A DNA stretch of 64,000 bases from sequence record PQ462667.1; one strand, written 5' to 3'. This DNA comes from Escherichia phage HMD-P3. Below the pieces are notes generated by a model, which searched no databases, had not been told where the DNA came from, and saw only the letters and a list, made by a program, of their open reading frames with translations. This document shows positions 28,490 through 40,754 of this stretch, piece by piece. A program made the translations under genes and the position numbers. Every line of letters begins with the position of its first letter. Position 1 is the first letter of the stretch.

Positions 28490-28900
28490 ATGACTACTCC
28501 AACTCAGTGGACTGATGAACTGTTCGAAAAAATGTCTTCCGAATACGTTGCTCGTATGGAGCAATTCCCAGAGGATGAACGTCCGGGTGTTAGCATGGAA
28601 ATTGTTAGCGAAATTGCCCAGGAAAATGGTGTAACTCCGAACGGTTTTCGTATGAAGCTGACTAAAGCAGGTTTGTATATCAAGAAAGCTGCTGGCTCTG
28701 CTTCTAAATCTAGCGCATCTACTGGAGAAAAAGCTTCTGGTGGTTCTCGTACTTCCAAAGCCCAGGCGCATGCAGATCTTCGTTCAGCGTTCTCTGATGC
28801 TGGCCTAGCACCAGATTTTCTGGATGATGCAATTATCGACAAACTGACCGGTAAAGCGGCTGCTCATCTGGCAGAAGCAATCCGAGCTATCACTAAGTAA
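28490..28900 (+). CDS. hypothetical protein (136 aa)
   Basis: ORF with RBS (AAGGAAA) and its own promoter-like element (cttgatataatattctcat) upstream. Confidence 0.5.
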   Translation: MTTPTQWTDELFEKMSSEYVARMEQFPEDERPGVSMEIVSEIAQENGVTPNGFRMKLTKAGLYIKKAAGSASKSSASTGEKASGGSRTSKAQAHADLRSAFSDAGLAPDFLDDAIIDKLTGKAAAHLAEAIRAITK

Positions 28901-29676: not shown

Positions 29677-29866
29677 TATGAACATAACACTTCCAAAAAT
29701 TCAAGCAAAGTTAAACCTAGTATCAACTGCTAGAAATAACTATCTAGATAACTTTGGTGGAATCAACGATAAAGCGTACAAAGATGCGTGGTTGAAAGAA
29801 GCGCAAGAGTTAGCCGATCTCACTACTCAGTATAGTAAAGAACTACAGGTAGAAATGAATGACTAA
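29660..29866 (+). CDS. hypothetical protein (68 aa)
   Basis: ORF immediately upstream of, and overlapping, the ligase N-fragment. Confidence 0.4.
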   Translation: MMRGSIMNITLPKIQAKLNLVSTARNNYLDNFGGINDKAYKDAWLKEAQELADLTTQYSKELQVEMND

Positions 29867-30830
29867 TGTAAAAGACTTTATTAAACGTTGTCAAGAAGCA
29901 TATTACCAGGGAATGTCTTTAATCTCTGACGAAGAATATGATCGTCTGATTAAAAGATTTCCGTTAGAAGAAGAGATCGGGCCTAAGGGTGATATTCCAC
30001 ATCTGTATCGTATGTATTCTTTACAGAAAGTTTATTATAATCGTGGAGATAAACCTCCGTTTAACCCATTAGGTCAGGTAGAAACTGATAAGTTAGATGG
30101 TTGTGCGATTTCTCTGTTATATATTAATGGCGAATTTGTTCAAGCACTAACTCGTGGTAATGGTATTCTAGGGAACGATGTCACAAGCAACGTAAGATTG
30201 CTGAACATTCCTAAAAAGATTTCCCAAAAAGTACCTACTCAAATCACTGGTGAAGTTCTAATTACAAAAGAAGTAGAAAATAAACGTAACTTTGCCTCTG
30301 GTGCTATTAACCTCAAAGATAGTGATGATTTCGTACAGCGTATCGGAGAAGGTGGTTTAATCTTCGTTGCATACGGTATCCAGTGTTCTGGTGAATCTGT
30401 AGGTATTACAGAAACGTATTTAAAAGATATGCTTTGGCTAGAGAATGAGAACTTCTTAACAGTTGTTAATGTGCGTTCCTTCTTTAAGTGGATTCCAACG
30501 GATGGTAAAGTTGTTCGTATTAATGACAACAACAAATTCTTCCGAGAAGGCTGGACTAATAAATTTCCTCGTGGAGCATTCGCTATTAAAGAGGATGAAG
30601 AAGGTGAGATTACTACTCTTACTAAAGTTGAATGGCAGGTAGGGGCTTCTGGTAAAGTAACTCCAGTTGGTTATTTCGAACCGGTAATTATTGATGATGC
30701 TACAATTGTTAAGGCGACTCTTAATAACGTTGATTATATTAACTCTCTCGATCTAGAGATCGGTTGCCAGATTCGAGTAATTCGTGCTGGTGGTGTAATC
30801 CCGTGCATAGTAGAGCGAGTATACGATTAA
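29859..30830 (+). CDS. ligA: NAD-dependent DNA ligase, N-terminal fragment (adenylation + OB domains)
   Basis: EEYDRLIKRF, adenylation lysine motif KLDGCAISLLY, TRGNGILGNDVTSNV and an OB-domain tail align to bacterial LigA. Confidence 0.85.
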   Translation: MTNVKDFIKRCQEAYYQGMSLISDEEYDRLIKRFPLEEEIGPKGDIPHLYRMYSLQKVYYNRGDKPPFNPLGQVETDKLDGCAISLLYINGEFVQALTRGNGILGNDVTSNVRLLNIPKKISQKVPTQITGEVLITKEVENKRNFASGAINLKDSDDFVQRIGEGGLIFVAYGIQCSGESVGITETYLKDMLWLENENFLTVVNVRSFFKWIPTDGKVVRINDNNKFFREGWTNKFPRGAFAIKEDEEGEITTLTKVEWQVGASGKVTPVGYFEPVIIDDATIVKATLNNVDYINSLDLEIGCQIRVIRAGGVIPCIVERVYD

Positions 30831-31029
30831 TACATAACCCTTTGCTACCCATCTACCATATCGGAATTATAAAGTGGTTATTGACATTTTCGCCGCTTAG
30901 GTATATACTATTATCATTCAGTTGAGGGATAGAAAGTTATGGCGAGGGTAAGCAAAGTTAGTTAAAATTGTAGTTGCTAAATGCTTAAATACTTGCTATA
31001 ATATTTATATAAATTGATAAGGAAGAAAT

Positions 31030-31812
31030 TTGATGAAAATCGAAATTCCAATACAATGTCCCTCTTGTGGTTCTAAGCTAGATCTTGTCAACGGACAATT
31101 ATTCTGTCGGAATAAGTCCAACTGTCCAGCGCAATCAAGTAAGTTAATTGAGAACTTCTGTACAAAAATGAAGTTAAAGGGCTTTGGCCCAAAAACTATT
31201 GAGAAGCTGGAGCTGACGAAGATTTCAGAACTATTCTACCTAACCGAAGAAGATTTGGTTAGAGCCGTGGGTAGCAAGGTTGCCGCTAAATTAATTAGCG
31301 AATTAAATACTAAAGTTCGCGGAGACATTGACTTTGGTTCAGTTCTCGGTTCTTTAGGAATCCCTCTAATTGGAGAGGTTGCAGCAAAGAAATTATCCCA
31401 AAATTGCACTAGCTTCCACGATGTGAAGGCTGACGGCAAGGCTGGAGAAAACTATAAAACCTGGCTAAATTCCCCACAAGGCAAGGATGTTATTGAATTA
31501 CCGTGGAAATTCTCAACTGGTATCAGAGGTGCAAAAGCTAATATTATCATTACAGATGAATTAGTTGCCCAGCCAAACGGAATCGCGGTATGTATTACCG
31601 GATCTTTGCAAGATTTTGCAAATCGAACGGATGCAACAAACTATTTAGAAAGTCTAGGATATACGGTTAAGAAATCCGTTACCAAAGACGTCAAATACCT
31701 AATCTGTGAGGATGAATCAAAACGTTCTTCCTCATCTTATAAGAAAGCCGAAACGAATGGGATAGAAATCCTGTCGATTAAAGAACTATTGGAGAAAAAT
31801 AATAATGTCTAA
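31030..31812 (+). CDS. ligB: NAD-dependent DNA ligase, C-terminal fragment (Zn finger, HhH, BRCT)
   Basis: CPSCGSKLDLVNGQLFCRNKSNCPAQ (LigA Cys4 zinc finger), helix-hairpin-helix segment, BRCT-like ICITGSL...; separated from the N-fragment by a 199-bp gap carrying promoters. Confidence 0.85.
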   Translation: MMKIEIPIQCPSCGSKLDLVNGQLFCRNKSNCPAQSSKLIENFCTKMKLKGFGPKTIEKLELTKISELFYLTEEDLVRAVGSKVAAKLISELNTKVRGDIDFGSVLGSLGIPLIGEVAAKKLSQNCTSFHDVKADGKAGENYKTWLNSPQGKDVIELPWKFSTGIRGAKANIIITDELVAQPNGIAVCITGSLQDFANRTDATNYLESLGYTVKKSVTKDVKYLICEDESKRSSSSYKKAETNGIEILSIKELLEKNNNV

Positions 31813-32572
31813 ACTGAACTGGAACGTAGAAGGTGTAACCGAGTCTCTGAAAGCAAAAGCCACTGCTCTGGGTGTTGCTGTAATCTCTCAAGAACAAGTA
31901 GCTGCTATCGCTGCTGAACTGGCTGCTGAAACTGGCAAAGACGTTACAGCTCGCTCTGTCGGCTCTAAACTGCGTAAAGAAGGTTTTGAAGTACAGAAAG
32001 CTAACGAAGTACAGAAATCCCCGTGGACTCCTGAGCAGGAAGCTGAACTGGTTGATTTCCTGAACGCTCATGCTGGTCAGTACACCTATGCTGAAATCGC
32101 TGCTGCTGTAGCTGGTGGTCAGTTCGGTGCTAAACAGGTACAGGGTAAGATCCTGAGTCTGGAAATGACCGCTTCTGTTAAGCCAACCGAAAAAGCTGCT
32201 GCTGTTCGTTCCTTTACTCCAGATGAAGAAACTGATTTTGTTAATCAGGTTGTTGCTGGTGCTACTATTGAAGCTATCGCTGCTCACTTCGGTCGTAATA
32301 TCAAGCAGATCCGTGGTAAAGCTCTGAGCCTGCTTCGTGAAGGTCGTATCGCTGCTATGCCGGTACAGGAAACTTCAAGTGCTAAAACTCGTGAAGATCT
32401 GTTAGAAGGTCTGGATCTGGTTAACATGACTGTTGCTGAGATCGCTGAGAAAACTGGTAAGTCTGAGCGCGGTGTTAAATCTATGCTGTCTCGTCGTGGT
32501 CTGGTTGCTAAGGACTATGATGGTGCCGCTAAGCGTGCTAAACTGGATGCAAAAGCTGCGGCTGCTGAATAA
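31805..32572 (+). CDS. protein with three tandem ~50-aa alpha-helical repeats
   Basis: Three repeats of the form (T)PE/DE..E.V.F.N...G.T..EIAA..G.....V.GK.LSL...; the third continues ...MTVAEIAEKTGKSERGVKSMLSRRGL (HTH/SAP-like); terminator downstream. Confidence 0.55.
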   Translation: MSKLNWNVEGVTESLKAKATALGVAVISQEQVAAIAAELAAETGKDVTARSVGSKLRKEGFEVQKANEVQKSPWTPEQEAELVDFLNAHAGQYTYAEIAAAVAGGQFGAKQVQGKILSLEMTASVKPTEKAAAVRSFTPDEETDFVNQVVAGATIEAIAAHFGRNIKQIRGKALSLLREGRIAAMPVQETSSAKTREDLLEGLDLVNMTVAEIAEKTGKSERGVKSMLSRRGLVAKDYDGAAKRAKLDAKAAAAE

Positions 32573-32588
32573 TCTGGTAAATTAAACC

Positions 32589-32622
32589 TAAGGGGAGGGG
32601 GCTATGCTCCTTCCCCTTTTTG
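32589..32622 (+). terminator. rho-independent terminator
   Basis: aaggggagggggctatgctccttcccctttttg: G/C-rich stem with T-run; the track ORF start at 32604 lies inside it. Confidence 0.6.
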
Positions 32623-32654
32623 CATTTAGAAGGCACGAAAGCGTGCAAAGGAGA

Positions 32655-34127
32655 ATGACCTTGTTTAACGTGCAAGCTGTAGTGTTGAAGATGCTTCTCG
32701 CTTCTGAACAGAAGCAAATAGCATTGGAAACATTCTCAAAACTGCATAAAGATCATTTTAATGACGCTTTCTCCTCAATTTACCAAGCCGTCCAGAATTA
32801 TTATAAAAAATATAACACAATGCCGTCCATTGACGCACTTATGCTTGAAGCTAATAGGAACGCCCGCCTTTCTCAAGCTCTAGTCGTCTTAGCTAACACT
32901 CAAATTCCAGAAGTGAGCATGGAACAGGCACTTGAAGTCCTAGAGGCTGAATATACACAGGATTTATTCCTGAAGCTTCTAGAAACAGACGTGCTTCAAG
33001 ATTTAACAATGCTGGATCAGGGAGAAATTCTCAACCGAGTTGCCTCCCTTCACTTAAAATTAGAAGAGAAAGTAACGAATACTGGAAAAGTATTCAACGC
33101 AGATAACATGCGTATTTTCCAGAGAGAAGAAGATACCAAACTGAACTTAATCGCTCTTGGTATTTGTAATGAGTTCGACGCTCAAATTGGTTTAGCTCGC
33201 ACAGAAACGTTACTGCTTGGTGGTTGGCGTGGTACTGGTAAATCCATTATCTGTTCAAACATACAGGTTCAGCAATATTTGAATGGAGATATTGCTCCAT
33301 ACTTCTCAATTGAGATGAAAGAACATGAAGTATTTAGACGTAATCTAGCCATGTTAGCAGGTGTATCAGCACTAGCAATGCGTAATAATACTCTAGAAGG
33401 TGCAGCTCTGTTGAGATTAGCCAGAACTAGAGCTAGAATGTTTAATGGTGGTGAAGAGCTTTTTGATAACTTCGTTAAACAGTACACAATGGCTAAGATG
33501 AGTGATTTCTACGATATGGAGAGTAAGCTAATAGAAGGATATGAGCTACATACTCCTATGATTATTGTTTATGACCCTGAGCTGTCTATTACAACAGTTG
33601 ACGTAGAACTAAATAAATTAGTTGCTAGATATGGAGATAAAGTTACAGTAGCTTTACTGGACTATATTAACCAAACCCGACTTCCAGATTCTAAAACCAT
33701 TGATATGTATGACTGGAAAGAACAGATGGTTGTTAGCTCGTCTTTCAAATCTATCTGCCAGAAACATAACGTGGCTGGTGTAGCTCCTTACCAGATCGAT
33801 CAAGATGGTAGAACACGTATGTCAAAGGGGATTCTTGATTCCGCGGATATGGCTGCTAATCTTAATGCTGCAAAAGCTGATAATGGTCAAGGTGCTATTA
33901 TGTTTGACTTCGTTAAGACTCGTTCTTCTGATAGCGTGAAGTTTATGCCTAAGATGAACTGGGAAACTCTGCGAATGGATAACACTACCAACCTAGCAAT
34001 GGAAGACATATCTCAAATGGAAGCTGAGTTCGTTATCCCTATTGAGAAGGATAAGCCGGCTCAACCTAAACGTGCTAAGAAAGACAAAGCTGAAAATTCA
34101 ACAGGTGAACAGGCCAGCGATATATGA
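32655..34127 (+). CDS. DnaB-like / RecA-fold replicative helicase
   Basis: Walker A LLGGWRGTGKS and Walker B-like VALLDYINQ; start set to ATG 32655 (RBS AAGGAGA; a TTG at 32661 is an alternative) rather than the track start inside the terminator. Confidence 0.6.
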   Translation: MTLFNVQAVVLKMLLASEQKQIALETFSKLHKDHFNDAFSSIYQAVQNYYKKYNTMPSIDALMLEANRNARLSQALVVLANTQIPEVSMEQALEVLEAEYTQDLFLKLLETDVLQDLTMLDQGEILNRVASLHLKLEEKVTNTGKVFNADNMRIFQREEDTKLNLIALGICNEFDAQIGLARTETLLLGGWRGTGKSIICSNIQVQQYLNGDIAPYFSIEMKEHEVFRRNLAMLAGVSALAMRNNTLEGAALLRLARTRARMFNGGEELFDNFVKQYTMAKMSDFYDMESKLIEGYELHTPMIIVYDPELSITTVDVELNKLVARYGDKVTVALLDYINQTRLPDSKTIDMYDWKEQMVVSSSFKSICQKHNVAGVAPYQIDQDGRTRMSKGILDSADMAANLNAAKADNGQGAIMFDFVKTRSSDSVKFMPKMNWETLRMDNTTNLAMEDISQMEAEFVIPIEKDKPAQPKRAKKDKAENSTGEQASDI

Positions 34128-39703: not shown

Positions 39704-39988
39704 ATGCTTACAGAGCCTGATGCTCACCAATTATTGGTCGGTTCCTCATTCATTTTGAATGAATCAACAATAGTTGATAATCCAAATAAATTGTCTAATA
39801 GACAACTGGCAGAATATCTAGGAATTTTAAGTCTACGAAATTATGCCGAATACAAGTTTACAAACGATCCTAGTTTGGACATACAATATGTTCCAGTATG
39901 GATACCACGTTTAGTAATCGACACTAACCCACTAATCGCAATTAACAAATCGAAATTAATCTTTAAAGAGGAAATAAAATATGGCTAA
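39704..39988 (+). CDS. hypothetical protein (94 aa)
   Basis: ORF overlapping the next start. Confidence 0.4.
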   Translation: MLTEPDAHQLLVGSSFILNESTIVDNPNKLSNRQLAEYLGILSLRNYAEYKFTNDPSLDIQYVPVWIPRLVIDTNPLIAINKSKLIFKEEIKYG

Positions 39989-40754
39989 GTCTTGGGGCGA
40001 AACTACTGGCGGTTCTAACGATAAAATCGAATTCCTGAAGTTCAACAACGGTATCACTCGTGTTCGTATCGTTTCTGGTGTTCTTCCACGTTATGTCTAT
40101 TGGCTGACTAATAAAGATGGTAACGCAGCTCCTTTCGAATGTCTCCGTTTTAACCGTGACAAAGAGAGTTTTGTTCGTGGTAAAGCTGATCCGGTTCATG
40201 AGATGGGCTTCTTCGAGAAAGAGCTGGATAAAGATGGTAATCGTGTTCCGCTGAAACCGAAGAAAAACTATATAGCTTTTGTTATCGACCGTTCTGATAA
40301 CAAACTGAAAGTAATGGAAGTCAAGGCTACTATTCTGAAAGGCATCCAGTCTATCATGAAGCAGTTGAATCTGGCAACTCCGTTTGATATTGATATTTCT
40401 ATCGAGAAAAAAGGTAAAGGTTTCGATACTGAGTATGATGTACAGCAGATTGCTGCTATGCAGTTCCAGATTAAGCTGCAAGATCCTAACAGTGCGGAAT
40501 CTAAGCAATATGCTGCGGATGTAGATCTGATCGGTGAAGCTATGTGTGACGAAGATGGCGACATCATTAAGTTCGAAAAAGTTCCTTCTCTGGAACAAAC
40601 CTATCCGGTTCCTACCTATGAAGAGCAGAAAGAAGCAATTCAAGCCTTCATGGAGGGGCGTGAGAATAAAGATGATGATGCCAAATCTGGTAATAGCAAT
40701 GCAGGTTCCCAGAAAGGTATTGACTCAGAAGCTGCAAGCGATCTGGACGACTAA
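39981..40754 (+). CDS. putative ssDNA-binding protein
   Basis: Position in the replication module; Gly/Ser-rich linker and acidic C-terminal tail (SEAASDLDD) typical of phage SSBs; codon usage of a highly expressed gene. By analogy only. Confidence 0.5.
   Translation: MAKSWGETTGGSNDKIEFLKFNNGITRVRIVSGVLPRYVYWLTNKDGNAAPFECLRFNRDKESFVRGKADPVHEMGFFEKELDKDGNRVPLKPKKNYIAFVIDRSDNKLKVMEVKATILKGIQSIMKQLNLATPFDIDISIEKKGKGFDTEYDVQQIAAMQFQIKLQDPNSAESKQYAADVDLIGEAMCDEDGDIIKFEKVPSLEQTYPVPTYEEQKEAIQAFMEGRENKDDDAKSGNSNAGSQKGIDSEAASDLDD

What the first reader, a model, noticed from the sequence alone, without database searches (positions are those of the whole stretch)
31805..32572. Highly expressed-looking protein built from three tandem helical repeats
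The 255-aa protein contains three ~50-aa repeats with a conserved pattern (acidic start, hydrophobic core, EIAA, G...K.LSL) and codon usage typical of strongly expressed genes, and is followed by a strong terminator. Repeated HTH/SAP-like modules suggest a nucleic-acid-binding scaffold with no assigned function.
Basis: seen in the sequence. Interest (0 to 1): 0.35.

Follow-up and report, generated by a model that had tools for sequence, protein, structure and literature searches.

The report
Phage T5 D5 DNA-binding protein
This gene is the long-known D5 protein of T5-like phages, an abundant early DNA-binding protein built from four helix-turn-helix modules, so the repeats and the strong-expression signals are real but the gene is already characterised.

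Summary
The ORF at 31805..32572 (+) is real and encodes 255 aa. It is gene D5 of a T5-like phage: 254/255 residues match T5 D5 (YP_006946.1), and the gene order is the same (ligA, ligB, D5, DnaB-like D6, primase, polymerase).

- **Repeats.** They pass formal tests. Modules 69-126 and 127-190 match at profile E 3.6e-9, and single-sequence z is 7.5 (0 of 2000 shuffles). There are four modules, not three. Module 1 is recovered in register only in relatives. Module 4 is divergent.
- **Structure.** AlphaFold (pLDDT 91, pTM 0.46) gives three three-helix bundles and a C-terminal helix-turn-helix on flexible linkers.
- **Codon bias.** It is the strongest of 54 ORFs in the window (CAI 0.71 against a median of about 0.27) and is conserved in Vibrio and Pectobacterium phage orthologues.
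- **Expression signals.** A 13-bp hairpin plus T-run terminator follows the gene. Two T5 early promoters, annotated P-K28b and P-K28a, lie upstream of ligB.

The modules are helix-turn-helix, not SAP. The function is assigned: the T5 record calls D5 a DNA-binding protein required for replication and late transcription, and a 2026 preprint reports it as a retron trigger. No solved structure exists.

Verdict: already known, low interest.

The parts
30881..30909 (+). Early promoter P-K28b (TTGACA, 17 nt, TATACT), the first of two tandem promoters upstream of ligB and D5.
   Evidence: Promoter scan scores 11/12. The sequence is identical to the T5 region annotated 'promoter P-K 28b'.
30974..31002 (+). 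Early promoter P-K28a (TTGCTA, 17 nt, TATAAT, with an extended -10 TG).
   Evidence: Promoter scan scores 10/12 plus TG. The sequence is identical to the T5 region annotated 'promoter P-K 28a'.
31030..31812 (+). ligB (BRCT-containing subunit of the split NAD-dependent DNA ligase). It lies immediately upstream, and its last 8 nt overlap the D5 start, so the two genes probably share a transcript.
   Evidence: ORF list, T5 annotation, and the same overlap in Vibrio and Pectobacterium phage orthologues. No terminator-like site on the + strand lies between the promoters and D5.
31791..31794 (+). GGAG Shine-Dalgarno-like motif, with 10 nt between it and the D5 ATG.
   Evidence: Read from the sequence.
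31805..32572 (+). Gene D5: a 255-aa, 27.0-kDa, pI 6.8, 17.6% Ala DNA-binding protein.
   Evidence: 254/255 identical to T5 YP_006946.1. PHROG 323 at E 1.5e-71. 513 phage records match at DNA level and 902 at protein level.
31805..32008 (+). Module 1 (residues 1-68), a three-helix HTH with helices at 11-22, 29-43 and 49-58. The third helix, ARSVGSKLRK, holds the invariant residues R50, K55, L56 and R57.
   Evidence: AlphaFold model, family alignment, M2/M3 HMM hits in register in relatives up to 18.3 bits, and a weak homeodomain match to 1y66 at E 0.006.
32009..32182 (+). Module 2 (residues 69-126), a three-helix HTH with helices at 76-88, 95-101 and 109-118. It has a Myb-like start (W74-T-P-E-Q-E). 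The third helix, AKQVQGKILS, holds the invariant residues Q113, G114, K115 and L117.
   Evidence: Pfam Myb_DNA-binding E 0.0043, below the gathering score.
32183..32374 (+). Module 3 (residues 127-190), a three-helix HTH with helices at 139-150, 155-162 and 166-178. It is the clear paralogue of module 2. The third helix, IKQIRGKALSLLR, holds the invariant residues G171, K172 and L174.
   Evidence: hhalign M2 vs M3 E 3.6e-9, z 7.5, Pfam HTH_23 E 1.6e-4, AlphaFold.
32375..32569 (+). Module 4 (residues 191-255), a divergent HTH with helices at 210-217 and 221-231, a short beta pair, and a C-terminal Ala/Lys-rich helix at 240-254. It is the most basic part of the protein (pI 9.1).
   Evidence: Pfam Sigma70_r4_2 at 28.7 bits, above the gathering score of 25.7, on residues 204-230. 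AlphaFold. Charge. Only marginal repeat signal.
32590..32628 (+). Intrinsic terminator: a 13-bp G+C-rich stem, a 3-nt loop, then TTTTTGCATTT.
   Evidence: Terminator scan. RNA fold -22.9 kcal/mol, z -4.1. An analogous 12-bp terminator follows D5 in Pectobacterium phage DU_PP_V. None was found by the same scan in Vibrio phage JSF12.

Best explanation
The ORF is gene D5 of a T5-like phage (Tequintavirus). It is an early gene, probably transcribed together with ligB from the two tandem early promoters P-K28b and P-K28a. Host-optimal codons suggest very efficient translation. A strong intrinsic terminator separates it from the downstream helicase and primase genes, which would then be made at lower levels.

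The product is a monomeric 27-kDa protein made of four small helix-turn-helix modules strung on flexible linkers: three homologous tri-helical modules and one divergent, basic C-terminal HTH.

Inferred mechanism: the conserved third helix of each module (R/K-x-h-x-G/S-K-h-L-S/R) contacts a DNA groove and backbone. One molecule therefore makes four weak, low-specificity contacts along duplex DNA, and the protein is needed in stoichiometric, DNA-coating amounts. [quoted passage not shown] The same DNA-binding surface is what a type IX retron senses.

What is shown here: identity, architecture and expression signals. What comes from the T5 record and papers: DNA binding and the replication and late-transcription phenotype. 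What is inferred: multivalent coating by four modules.
For: Identity:
- 254/255 residues identical to T5 D5.
- Same gene order as T5.
- PHROG 323 'D5-like' at E 1.5e-71.
- 902 phage records of about 100-126 kb carry it. The Vibrio phage JSF12 and Pectobacterium phage DU_PP_V loci examined show the same ligB-D5-DnaB-primase-polymerase order.

Function:
- The T5 record note reads 'DNA-binding protein; required for DNA replication and late transcription; also is involved in shutoff of expression of ...'.
- A 2026 preprint reports that D5 runs as a 26-kDa species in mass photometry, is toxic when expressed alone, remodels retron-Kva2, and is predicted by AlphaFold3 to bind the retron's msdDNA stem-loop through an HTH. 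Escape mutations fall at G53D, W74*, V149I and G232D.

Architecture:
- Repeat statistics.
- AlphaFold pLDDT 91 with pTM 0.46, meaning confident modules with undefined mutual orientation. The M2-M3 model has pLDDT 85.5.
- The invariant residues cluster in the four third helices.
- Pfam hits are all HTH families.

Abundance:
- CAI 0.713, top of 54 ORFs, Nc 33.8.
- Orthologues have the lowest Nc and highest CAI in their loci (35.6 and 38.8).
- Promoters are identical to T5 P-K28b and P-K28a.
- The D5 homologue is among the most abundant proteins in phiR2-01 virion preparations although it is not a known virion component.
- The two other ORFs with similar codon bias are the T5 D3 DNA-binding protein and D11 SSB homologues, which are also DNA-binding proteins.
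Against: - Net charge is about zero (pI 6.8; 34 K+R against 34 D+E), unlike classical basic DNA-coating proteins.
- No solved structure or DNA complex exists. PDB sequence searches gave nothing better than E 0.006, apart from one designed repeat protein. Foldseek on PDB gave nothing at E <= 1e-3.
- Nothing run here tests sequence specificity, cooperativity or the number of modules that touch DNA.
- The preprint's escaper carries a stop codon at W74 in D5. Read at face value, that would be hard to reconcile with an essential coating role.
- The papers said to show cooperative duplex binding and inhibition of T5 polymerase at nicks (Rice et al. 1979; Fujimura and Roop 1983) are recalled from memory. 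I could not read them; look-ups of two other T5 papers failed.
Confidence: 0.85

Rival explanations
1. D5 is a sequence-specific transcription factor or sigma-like RNA polymerase partner. It would turn on T5 late promoters and repress early ones by binding defined sites or the polymerase, not by coating DNA.
For: - Module 4 matches Pfam Sigma70_r4_2 above the gathering score (28.7 against 25.7 bits).
- Many records and PHROG 323 call it a transcriptional regulator or transcription factor.
- The T5 record links D5 to late transcription and shutoff.
- How T5 switches gene classes is stated to be still unknown.
- Distant relatives P0249 and P0250 fuse D5-like repeats to a LuxR/sigma region-4 domain.
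Against: - The sigma match covers only the 27-residue HTH (profile positions 23-49 of 54). No sigma region 2 was found.
- Extreme codon bias, conserved across genera, fits a stoichiometric protein better than a regulator.
- Four conserved HTH modules in a monomer are unusual for a promoter-specific factor.
- The RNA polymerase pull-down study of T5 lists RNA polymerase-associated phage proteins of 60 and 11 kDa (pre-early) and 90 and 15 kDa (early), plus gpT5.026. None is the size of D5, about 27 kDa.
Confidence: 0.1
2. D5 mainly recognises DNA structure (nicks, stem-loops, forks) rather than plain duplex. It would guard the natural nicks of T5 DNA from strand-displacement synthesis.
For: - The preprint predicts binding to the stem-loop of retron msdDNA.
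- T5 DNA carries site-specific nicks (misc_feature).
- From memory, D5 inhibits T5 polymerase on nicked duplex in vitro (Fujimura and Roop 1983, not read here).
Against: - The msdDNA complex is an AlphaFold3 prediction, not a structure.
- The expression level suggests far more molecules than there are nicks.
- Nothing run here addresses structure specificity.
Confidence: 0.05

Closest known systems
Bacteriophage T5 D5 protein (T5.118, YP_006946.1; PHROG 323)
   Same: 254/255 residues, same length, same neighbours, identical upstream promoters.
   Different: One substitution (A25 in the window, D25 in T5). The window phage also lacks the HNH gene hegJ between D6 and the primase gene.
Tandem tri-helical HTH DNA-binding arrays: Myb repeats (CDC5L/Cef1, SNAPc4), the paired domain (Pax6), bipartite transposase HTH (Tc3, Mos1, SETMAR)
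   Same: Successive three-helix HTH modules of about 50-60 residues on linkers. M2 and M3 begin with the Myb-like W/F-T-P-E/D-E-E. These are the best, though non-significant, Foldseek hits. Distant HMM relatives P0254 and P0264 are true Myb-repeat arrays.
   Different: Pfam Myb scores 17.6 bits, below the gathering score of 24.4. Only the first aromatic residue of the Myb Trp triad is conserved. Foldseek E-values are 0.05 or worse. D5 has four modules and no other domain.
Phage phi29 protein p6
   Same: An early phage DNA-binding protein that acts in both replication and the early-to-late transcription switch (abstracts). It works like D5 at the level of role.
   Different: No sequence or fold relationship was tested or expected. 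This is a functional analogy only.
T5 D3 and A2 HTH proteins (Pfam PF26822, Phage_T5_A2)
   Same: The window's D3 homologue aligns to module 1 of D5 (hhalign E 4e-4, 35% over 40 residues). Some D5 homologues carry precomputed PF26822 hits. D3 shares the strong codon bias.
   Different: D3 is a single-module protein of 136 aa, and the similarity is weak.

Membership tests
T5 D5 protein family (PHROG 323) | Full-length sequence similarity to T5 D5. | tested here: met
   99.6% identity over 255 aa. PHROG 323 at E 1.5e-71 covering residues 1-253.
T5 D5 protein family (PHROG 323) | Position in the early replication module between ligB and the DnaB-like helicase. | tested here: met
   Window ORFs against the T5 annotation. 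The same order is seen in Vibrio phage JSF12 and Pectobacterium phage DU_PP_V.
T5 D5 protein family (PHROG 323) | Binds DNA; needed for replication and late gene expression. | not testable with these tools
   Taken from the T5 record note and the title of McCorquodale 1979.
Helix-turn-helix superfamily, tri-helical (homeodomain-like) class | Three-helix bundle whose second and third helices form the HTH. | tested here: met
   AlphaFold pLDDT 91. Helix triplets at 11-22/29-43/49-58, 76-88/95-101/109-118 and 139-150/155-162/166-178. Module 4 has only two helices plus a C-terminal helix. This is a prediction, not an experiment.
Helix-turn-helix superfamily, tri-helical (homeodomain-like) class | Significant match to a curated HTH family. 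| tested here: inconclusive
   Only Sigma70_r4_2 on M4 passes its gathering score. HTH_23, Myb and HTH_33 on M3, M2 and M1 fall below theirs.
Myb/SANT repeat proteins | Pfam Myb_DNA-binding above threshold and regularly spaced aromatic residues. | tested here: not met
   17.6 bits against a cut-off of 24.4. Only W6, W74 and F137 at the module starts are conserved.
Sigma-70 family | Region 2 (-10 recognition and core binding) together with region 4. | tested here: not met
   No region 2 match. The region 4 match is limited to 27 residues. NCBIfam sigma70-ECF scores 12.6 bits against a cut-off of 42.9.
SAP domain | Match to the roughly 35-residue SAP helix-extension-helix motif. | tested here: not met
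   No SAP family among the Pfam hits at E <= 1.

The most novel reading that the evidence does not exclude
The four-HTH array is a reader of DNA structure, not a plain duplex coat. It would recognise the natural nicks or stem-loop and fork structures of T5 DNA, deciding where the phage polymerase may start and gating late transcription. This same structure-reading surface would be what the retron msdDNA imitates. The D5 module would then be one instance of a wider, variable-copy HTH repeat: relatives with other module numbers (P0186, P0193, P0240), a five-module relative (P0121), and sigma/LuxR-fused arrays (P0249, P0250).
Probability: 0.12. Interest if true: 0.45.

Novelty: already known. Interest (0 to 1): 0.15.

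Why it matters
D5 is a conserved gene of T5-like phages, found in 902 phage records. It sits where replication and the still unexplained early-to-late transcription switch meet, and it has just been reported as the trigger of a type IX retron.

The explicit four-module description, with the invariant third-helix residues mapped, gives a concrete mutagenesis plan. It could also explain why escape mutations are spread over modules 1 to 4. None of this changes what the gene is: a well-known phage protein.

Tried and rejected
- **PDB sequence searches** with the protein, the family profile and the M2-M3 profile. Nothing convincing came back: Myb21 at E 0.56, a designed engrailed homeodomain at 0.006, and a designed 'CAP repeat' at 2e-5 that matches only the 24-residue HTH core.
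- **Foldseek against PDB** with the full model and the M2-M3 model. No hit reached E <= 1e-3, only generic multi-HTH proteins.
- **NCBIfam.** No family reached its cut-off.
- **DNA-level repeats inside the gene.** Only short GCT-rich matches of 61-86% identity, which I attribute to the Ala codon bias. The modules are therefore not a recent DNA duplication.
- **Codon bias as a sign of foreign origin.** Rejected. GC3 (0.32) is like the neighbours, the extra G+C comes from Ala and Gly at codon positions 1-2, and the bias is conserved in orthologues from other genera.
- **The antisense 169-aa ORF at 31778..32287.** Rejected as a by-product of the codon bias.
- **Reading the classic T5 papers.** McCorquodale 1979 and Davison 2015 are not held in the library. 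Two keyword searches for D5 literature gave nothing further.

Full report
**Observation**

(i) Repeats. I cut the protein into four segments: M1 residues 1-68, M2 69-126, M3 127-190 and M4 191-255. I compared them as family profiles built from a 32-sequence alignment.
- M2 against M3 gives hhalign E 3.6e-9, probability 96%.
- M1 against M2, M3 and M4, and M3 against M4, give E 1.6e-4 to 7e-4. M2 against M4 gives 0.01.
- On the single sequence, Smith-Waterman with 2000 shuffles gives z 7.5 for M2-M3 (0/2000), z about 2 for M4 against the rest, and nothing for M1 against M2 or M3.
- An HMM of M2+M3 recovers M1 in register in relatives at up to 18.3 bits and M4 at up to 8.4 bits. Whole-protein shuffles reach at most 8.9, with a 99th percentile of 3.5.

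The repeat signal is therefore formally significant, but the count is four modules, of which only M2 and M3 are unmistakable from this one sequence.

(ii) Codon usage. CAI against E. coli highly expressed genes is 0.713, the top of 54 ORFs in the window (median about 0.27). GCT, CTG, CGT, GGT and ATC each account for 83-90% of their amino acid. Nc is 33.8.

(iii) Terminator. A 13-bp stem and 3-nt loop at 32590-32618 is followed by a T-run. Free energy is -22.9 kcal/mol, z -4.1.

**Identity**

The window comes from a T5-like phage.
- The gene matches 513 phage records at DNA level, most at 95-99% identity.
- The protein is 254/255 identical to T5 D5 (T5.118, YP_006946.1).
- The surrounding order ligA, ligB, D5, D6 (DnaB-like), primase, DNA polymerase is that of T5.
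- PHROG 323, 'transcriptional regulator, D5-like', matches at E 1.5e-71.
- At protein level 902 phage records carry it. All those listed are genomes of about 100-126 kb, from Escherichia, Salmonella, Klebsiella, Proteus, Vibrio, Aeromonas and Pectobacterium phages.
- The ligB-D5-DnaB-primase-polymerase order, including the overlap of D5 with the end of ligB, is kept in Vibrio phage JSF12 and Pectobacterium phage DU_PP_V.

**Anatomy**

AlphaFold2 with the family alignment gives mean pLDDT 91 but pTM 0.46. The modules are confident, but their mutual arrangement is not defined, which fits beads on flexible linkers.
- M1, M2 and M3 are three-helix bundles, with helices at 11-22/29-43/49-58, 76-88/95-101/109-118 and 139-150/155-162/166-178.
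- M4 has a two-helix HTH (210-217, 221-231), a short beta pair and a C-terminal Ala/Lys-rich helix (240-254).
- A separate model of M2-M3 agrees (pLDDT 85.5).
- The invariant residues of the family sit mainly in the four third helices: R50, K55, L56, R57; Q113, G114, K115, L117; G171, K172, L174; G223, L228, R230, R231.
- All Pfam matches are HTH families. Sigma70_r4_2 on M4 is above its gathering score. HTH_23 on M3, Myb on M2 and HTH_33 on M1 are below theirs.
- The protein is 27.0 kDa, pI 6.8 and 17.6% Ala. M4 is the only clearly basic part (pI 9.1).

No relative has a solved structure. Foldseek finds only weak similarity (E >= 0.047) to tandem-HTH DNA binders such as CDC5L Myb repeats, SNAPc4, SETMAR, Pax6, Tc3 and TraR/NarL. 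In the viral structure library the best hits are D5 of a Vibrio phage (6.5e-27), an unnamed protein (2.1e-16) and, more weakly, other multi-HTH phage proteins.

**Expression signals**

The region upstream of ligB is identical to the T5 region annotated as promoters P-K28b and P-K28a. Both score as near-consensus sigma-70 promoters. No terminator-like site on the + strand separates them from D5. The D5 ATG overlaps the last codons of ligB, and a GGAG lies 10 nt upstream of it.

The terminator after D5 has a counterpart in the Pectobacterium phage but not, by the same scan, in the Vibrio phage. The codon bias is conserved: the D5 orthologues have the lowest Nc (35.6 and 38.8) and the highest CAI in their loci. 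A proteomic study of the T5-like phage phiR2-01 found the D5 homologue among the most abundant proteins in virion preparations, although it is not a known virion component. That fits a very abundant DNA-bound protein.

**Function and mechanism**

The T5 record annotates D5 as a 'DNA-binding protein; required for DNA replication and late transcription; also is involved in shutoff of expression of ...'. The founding paper is cited as McCorquodale 1979, J Virol 29:322.

From memory, and not read here: D5 was purified as a cooperative double-strand DNA-binding protein (Rice et al. 1979) that inhibits T5 polymerase on nicked duplex (Fujimura and Roop 1983).

A 2026 preprint reports the following:
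- D5 runs as a 26-kDa species in mass photometry and is mildly toxic when expressed alone.
- It remodels the type IX retron-Kva2 complex and triggers its HEPN tRNase.
- An AlphaFold3 model has a D5 HTH on the msdDNA stem-loop.
- Escape mutations in D5 are G53D, W74*, V149I and G232D. By my mapping these fall in M1, M2, M3 and M4 respectively.

My reading is that D5 is a multivalent, low-specificity DNA coat made of four HTH modules. [quoted passage not shown] Identity, architecture and expression signals are shown here. DNA binding and the phenotype come from the T5 record and the papers. Four-module coating is inference.

Points against this reading: the net charge is neutral, there are no direct binding data for individual modules, and the escaper carries a stop codon in D5.

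**Rivals**

A promoter-specific or sigma-like regulator is suggested by the Sigma70_r4_2 hit and by annotation names. However, the hit is only the HTH, region 2 is absent, and the T5 RNA polymerase-associated proteins listed in the literature are of other sizes. A structure-specific binder of nicks or hairpins is possible but untested.

**Wider family**

A search of 1.84 billion representative proteins found 515 proteins at E <= 1e-3. They include:
- relatives with other module numbers (P0186, P0193, P0240);
- a 309-aa relative with an extra copy of M2 (P0121);
- proteins that join a LuxR/sigma region-4 domain to four or five D5-like repeats (P0249, P0250);
- long true Myb-repeat arrays (P0254, P0264, P0267; Pfam Myb E 1e-20 to 1e-33).

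The D5 module is thus a Myb/homeodomain-like HTH unit that tolerates copy-number change.

**Verdict**

It is wrong on 'SAP-like' and on 'no assigned function'. The gene is the well-known T5 D5 protein. Novelty: already known. Interest: low (0.15).

Noticed in passing
window 32604-32663: The ATG at 32604, used as the start of the DnaB-like helicase D6 here and in annotated relatives, lies in the 3-nt loop of the D5 terminator hairpin. Orthologues in Pectobacterium phage DU_PP_V and Vibrio phage JSF12 start at M-I-N-V-Q, which aligns with residue 20 of the window ORF. The true start is therefore probably TTG 32661 (GGAG at 32650-32653, 7 nt upstream) or ATG 32655, and the first 17-19 annotated residues are probably not translated.
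   Followed up: partly
window 34124 (D6 / primase junction): The window phage lacks the HNH homing endonuclease gene hegJ that T5 and phage MM-1 carry between D6 and the primase gene. Here the two genes overlap directly, as in Salmonella phage HMD-7.
   Followed up: no
window 28490-28900 and 39981-40754: After D5, the two ORFs with the strongest host-like codon bias are the homologues of T5 D3 (DNA-binding protein; CAI 0.56, Nc 34.9) and D11 (single-strand DNA-binding protein; CAI 0.53, Nc 34.1). D3 also aligns weakly with module 1 of D5 (hhalign E 4e-4).
   Followed up: partly
window 31778-32287 (-): A 169-aa antisense ORF lies entirely inside D5. Its product is Ser/Phe-rich, and I read it as a by-product of the GCT/CTG-rich codon bias of D5 rather than a gene.
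   Followed up: no
window 29859-31812: The NAD-dependent DNA ligase is split into ligA (adenylation and OB domains) and ligB (BRCT). An intergenic region of about 200 nt between them holds the two early promoters P-K28b and P-K28a. The split is conserved in the Vibrio and Pectobacterium phage loci.
   Followed up: no
proteins P0249 and P0250: Two proteins of 506 and 569 aa, of unknown origin, join an N-terminal LuxR/GerE-sigma70 region-4 domain to four or five tandem D5-like HTH repeats. P0121 (309 aa) is a D5 relative with five modules.
   Followed up: partly
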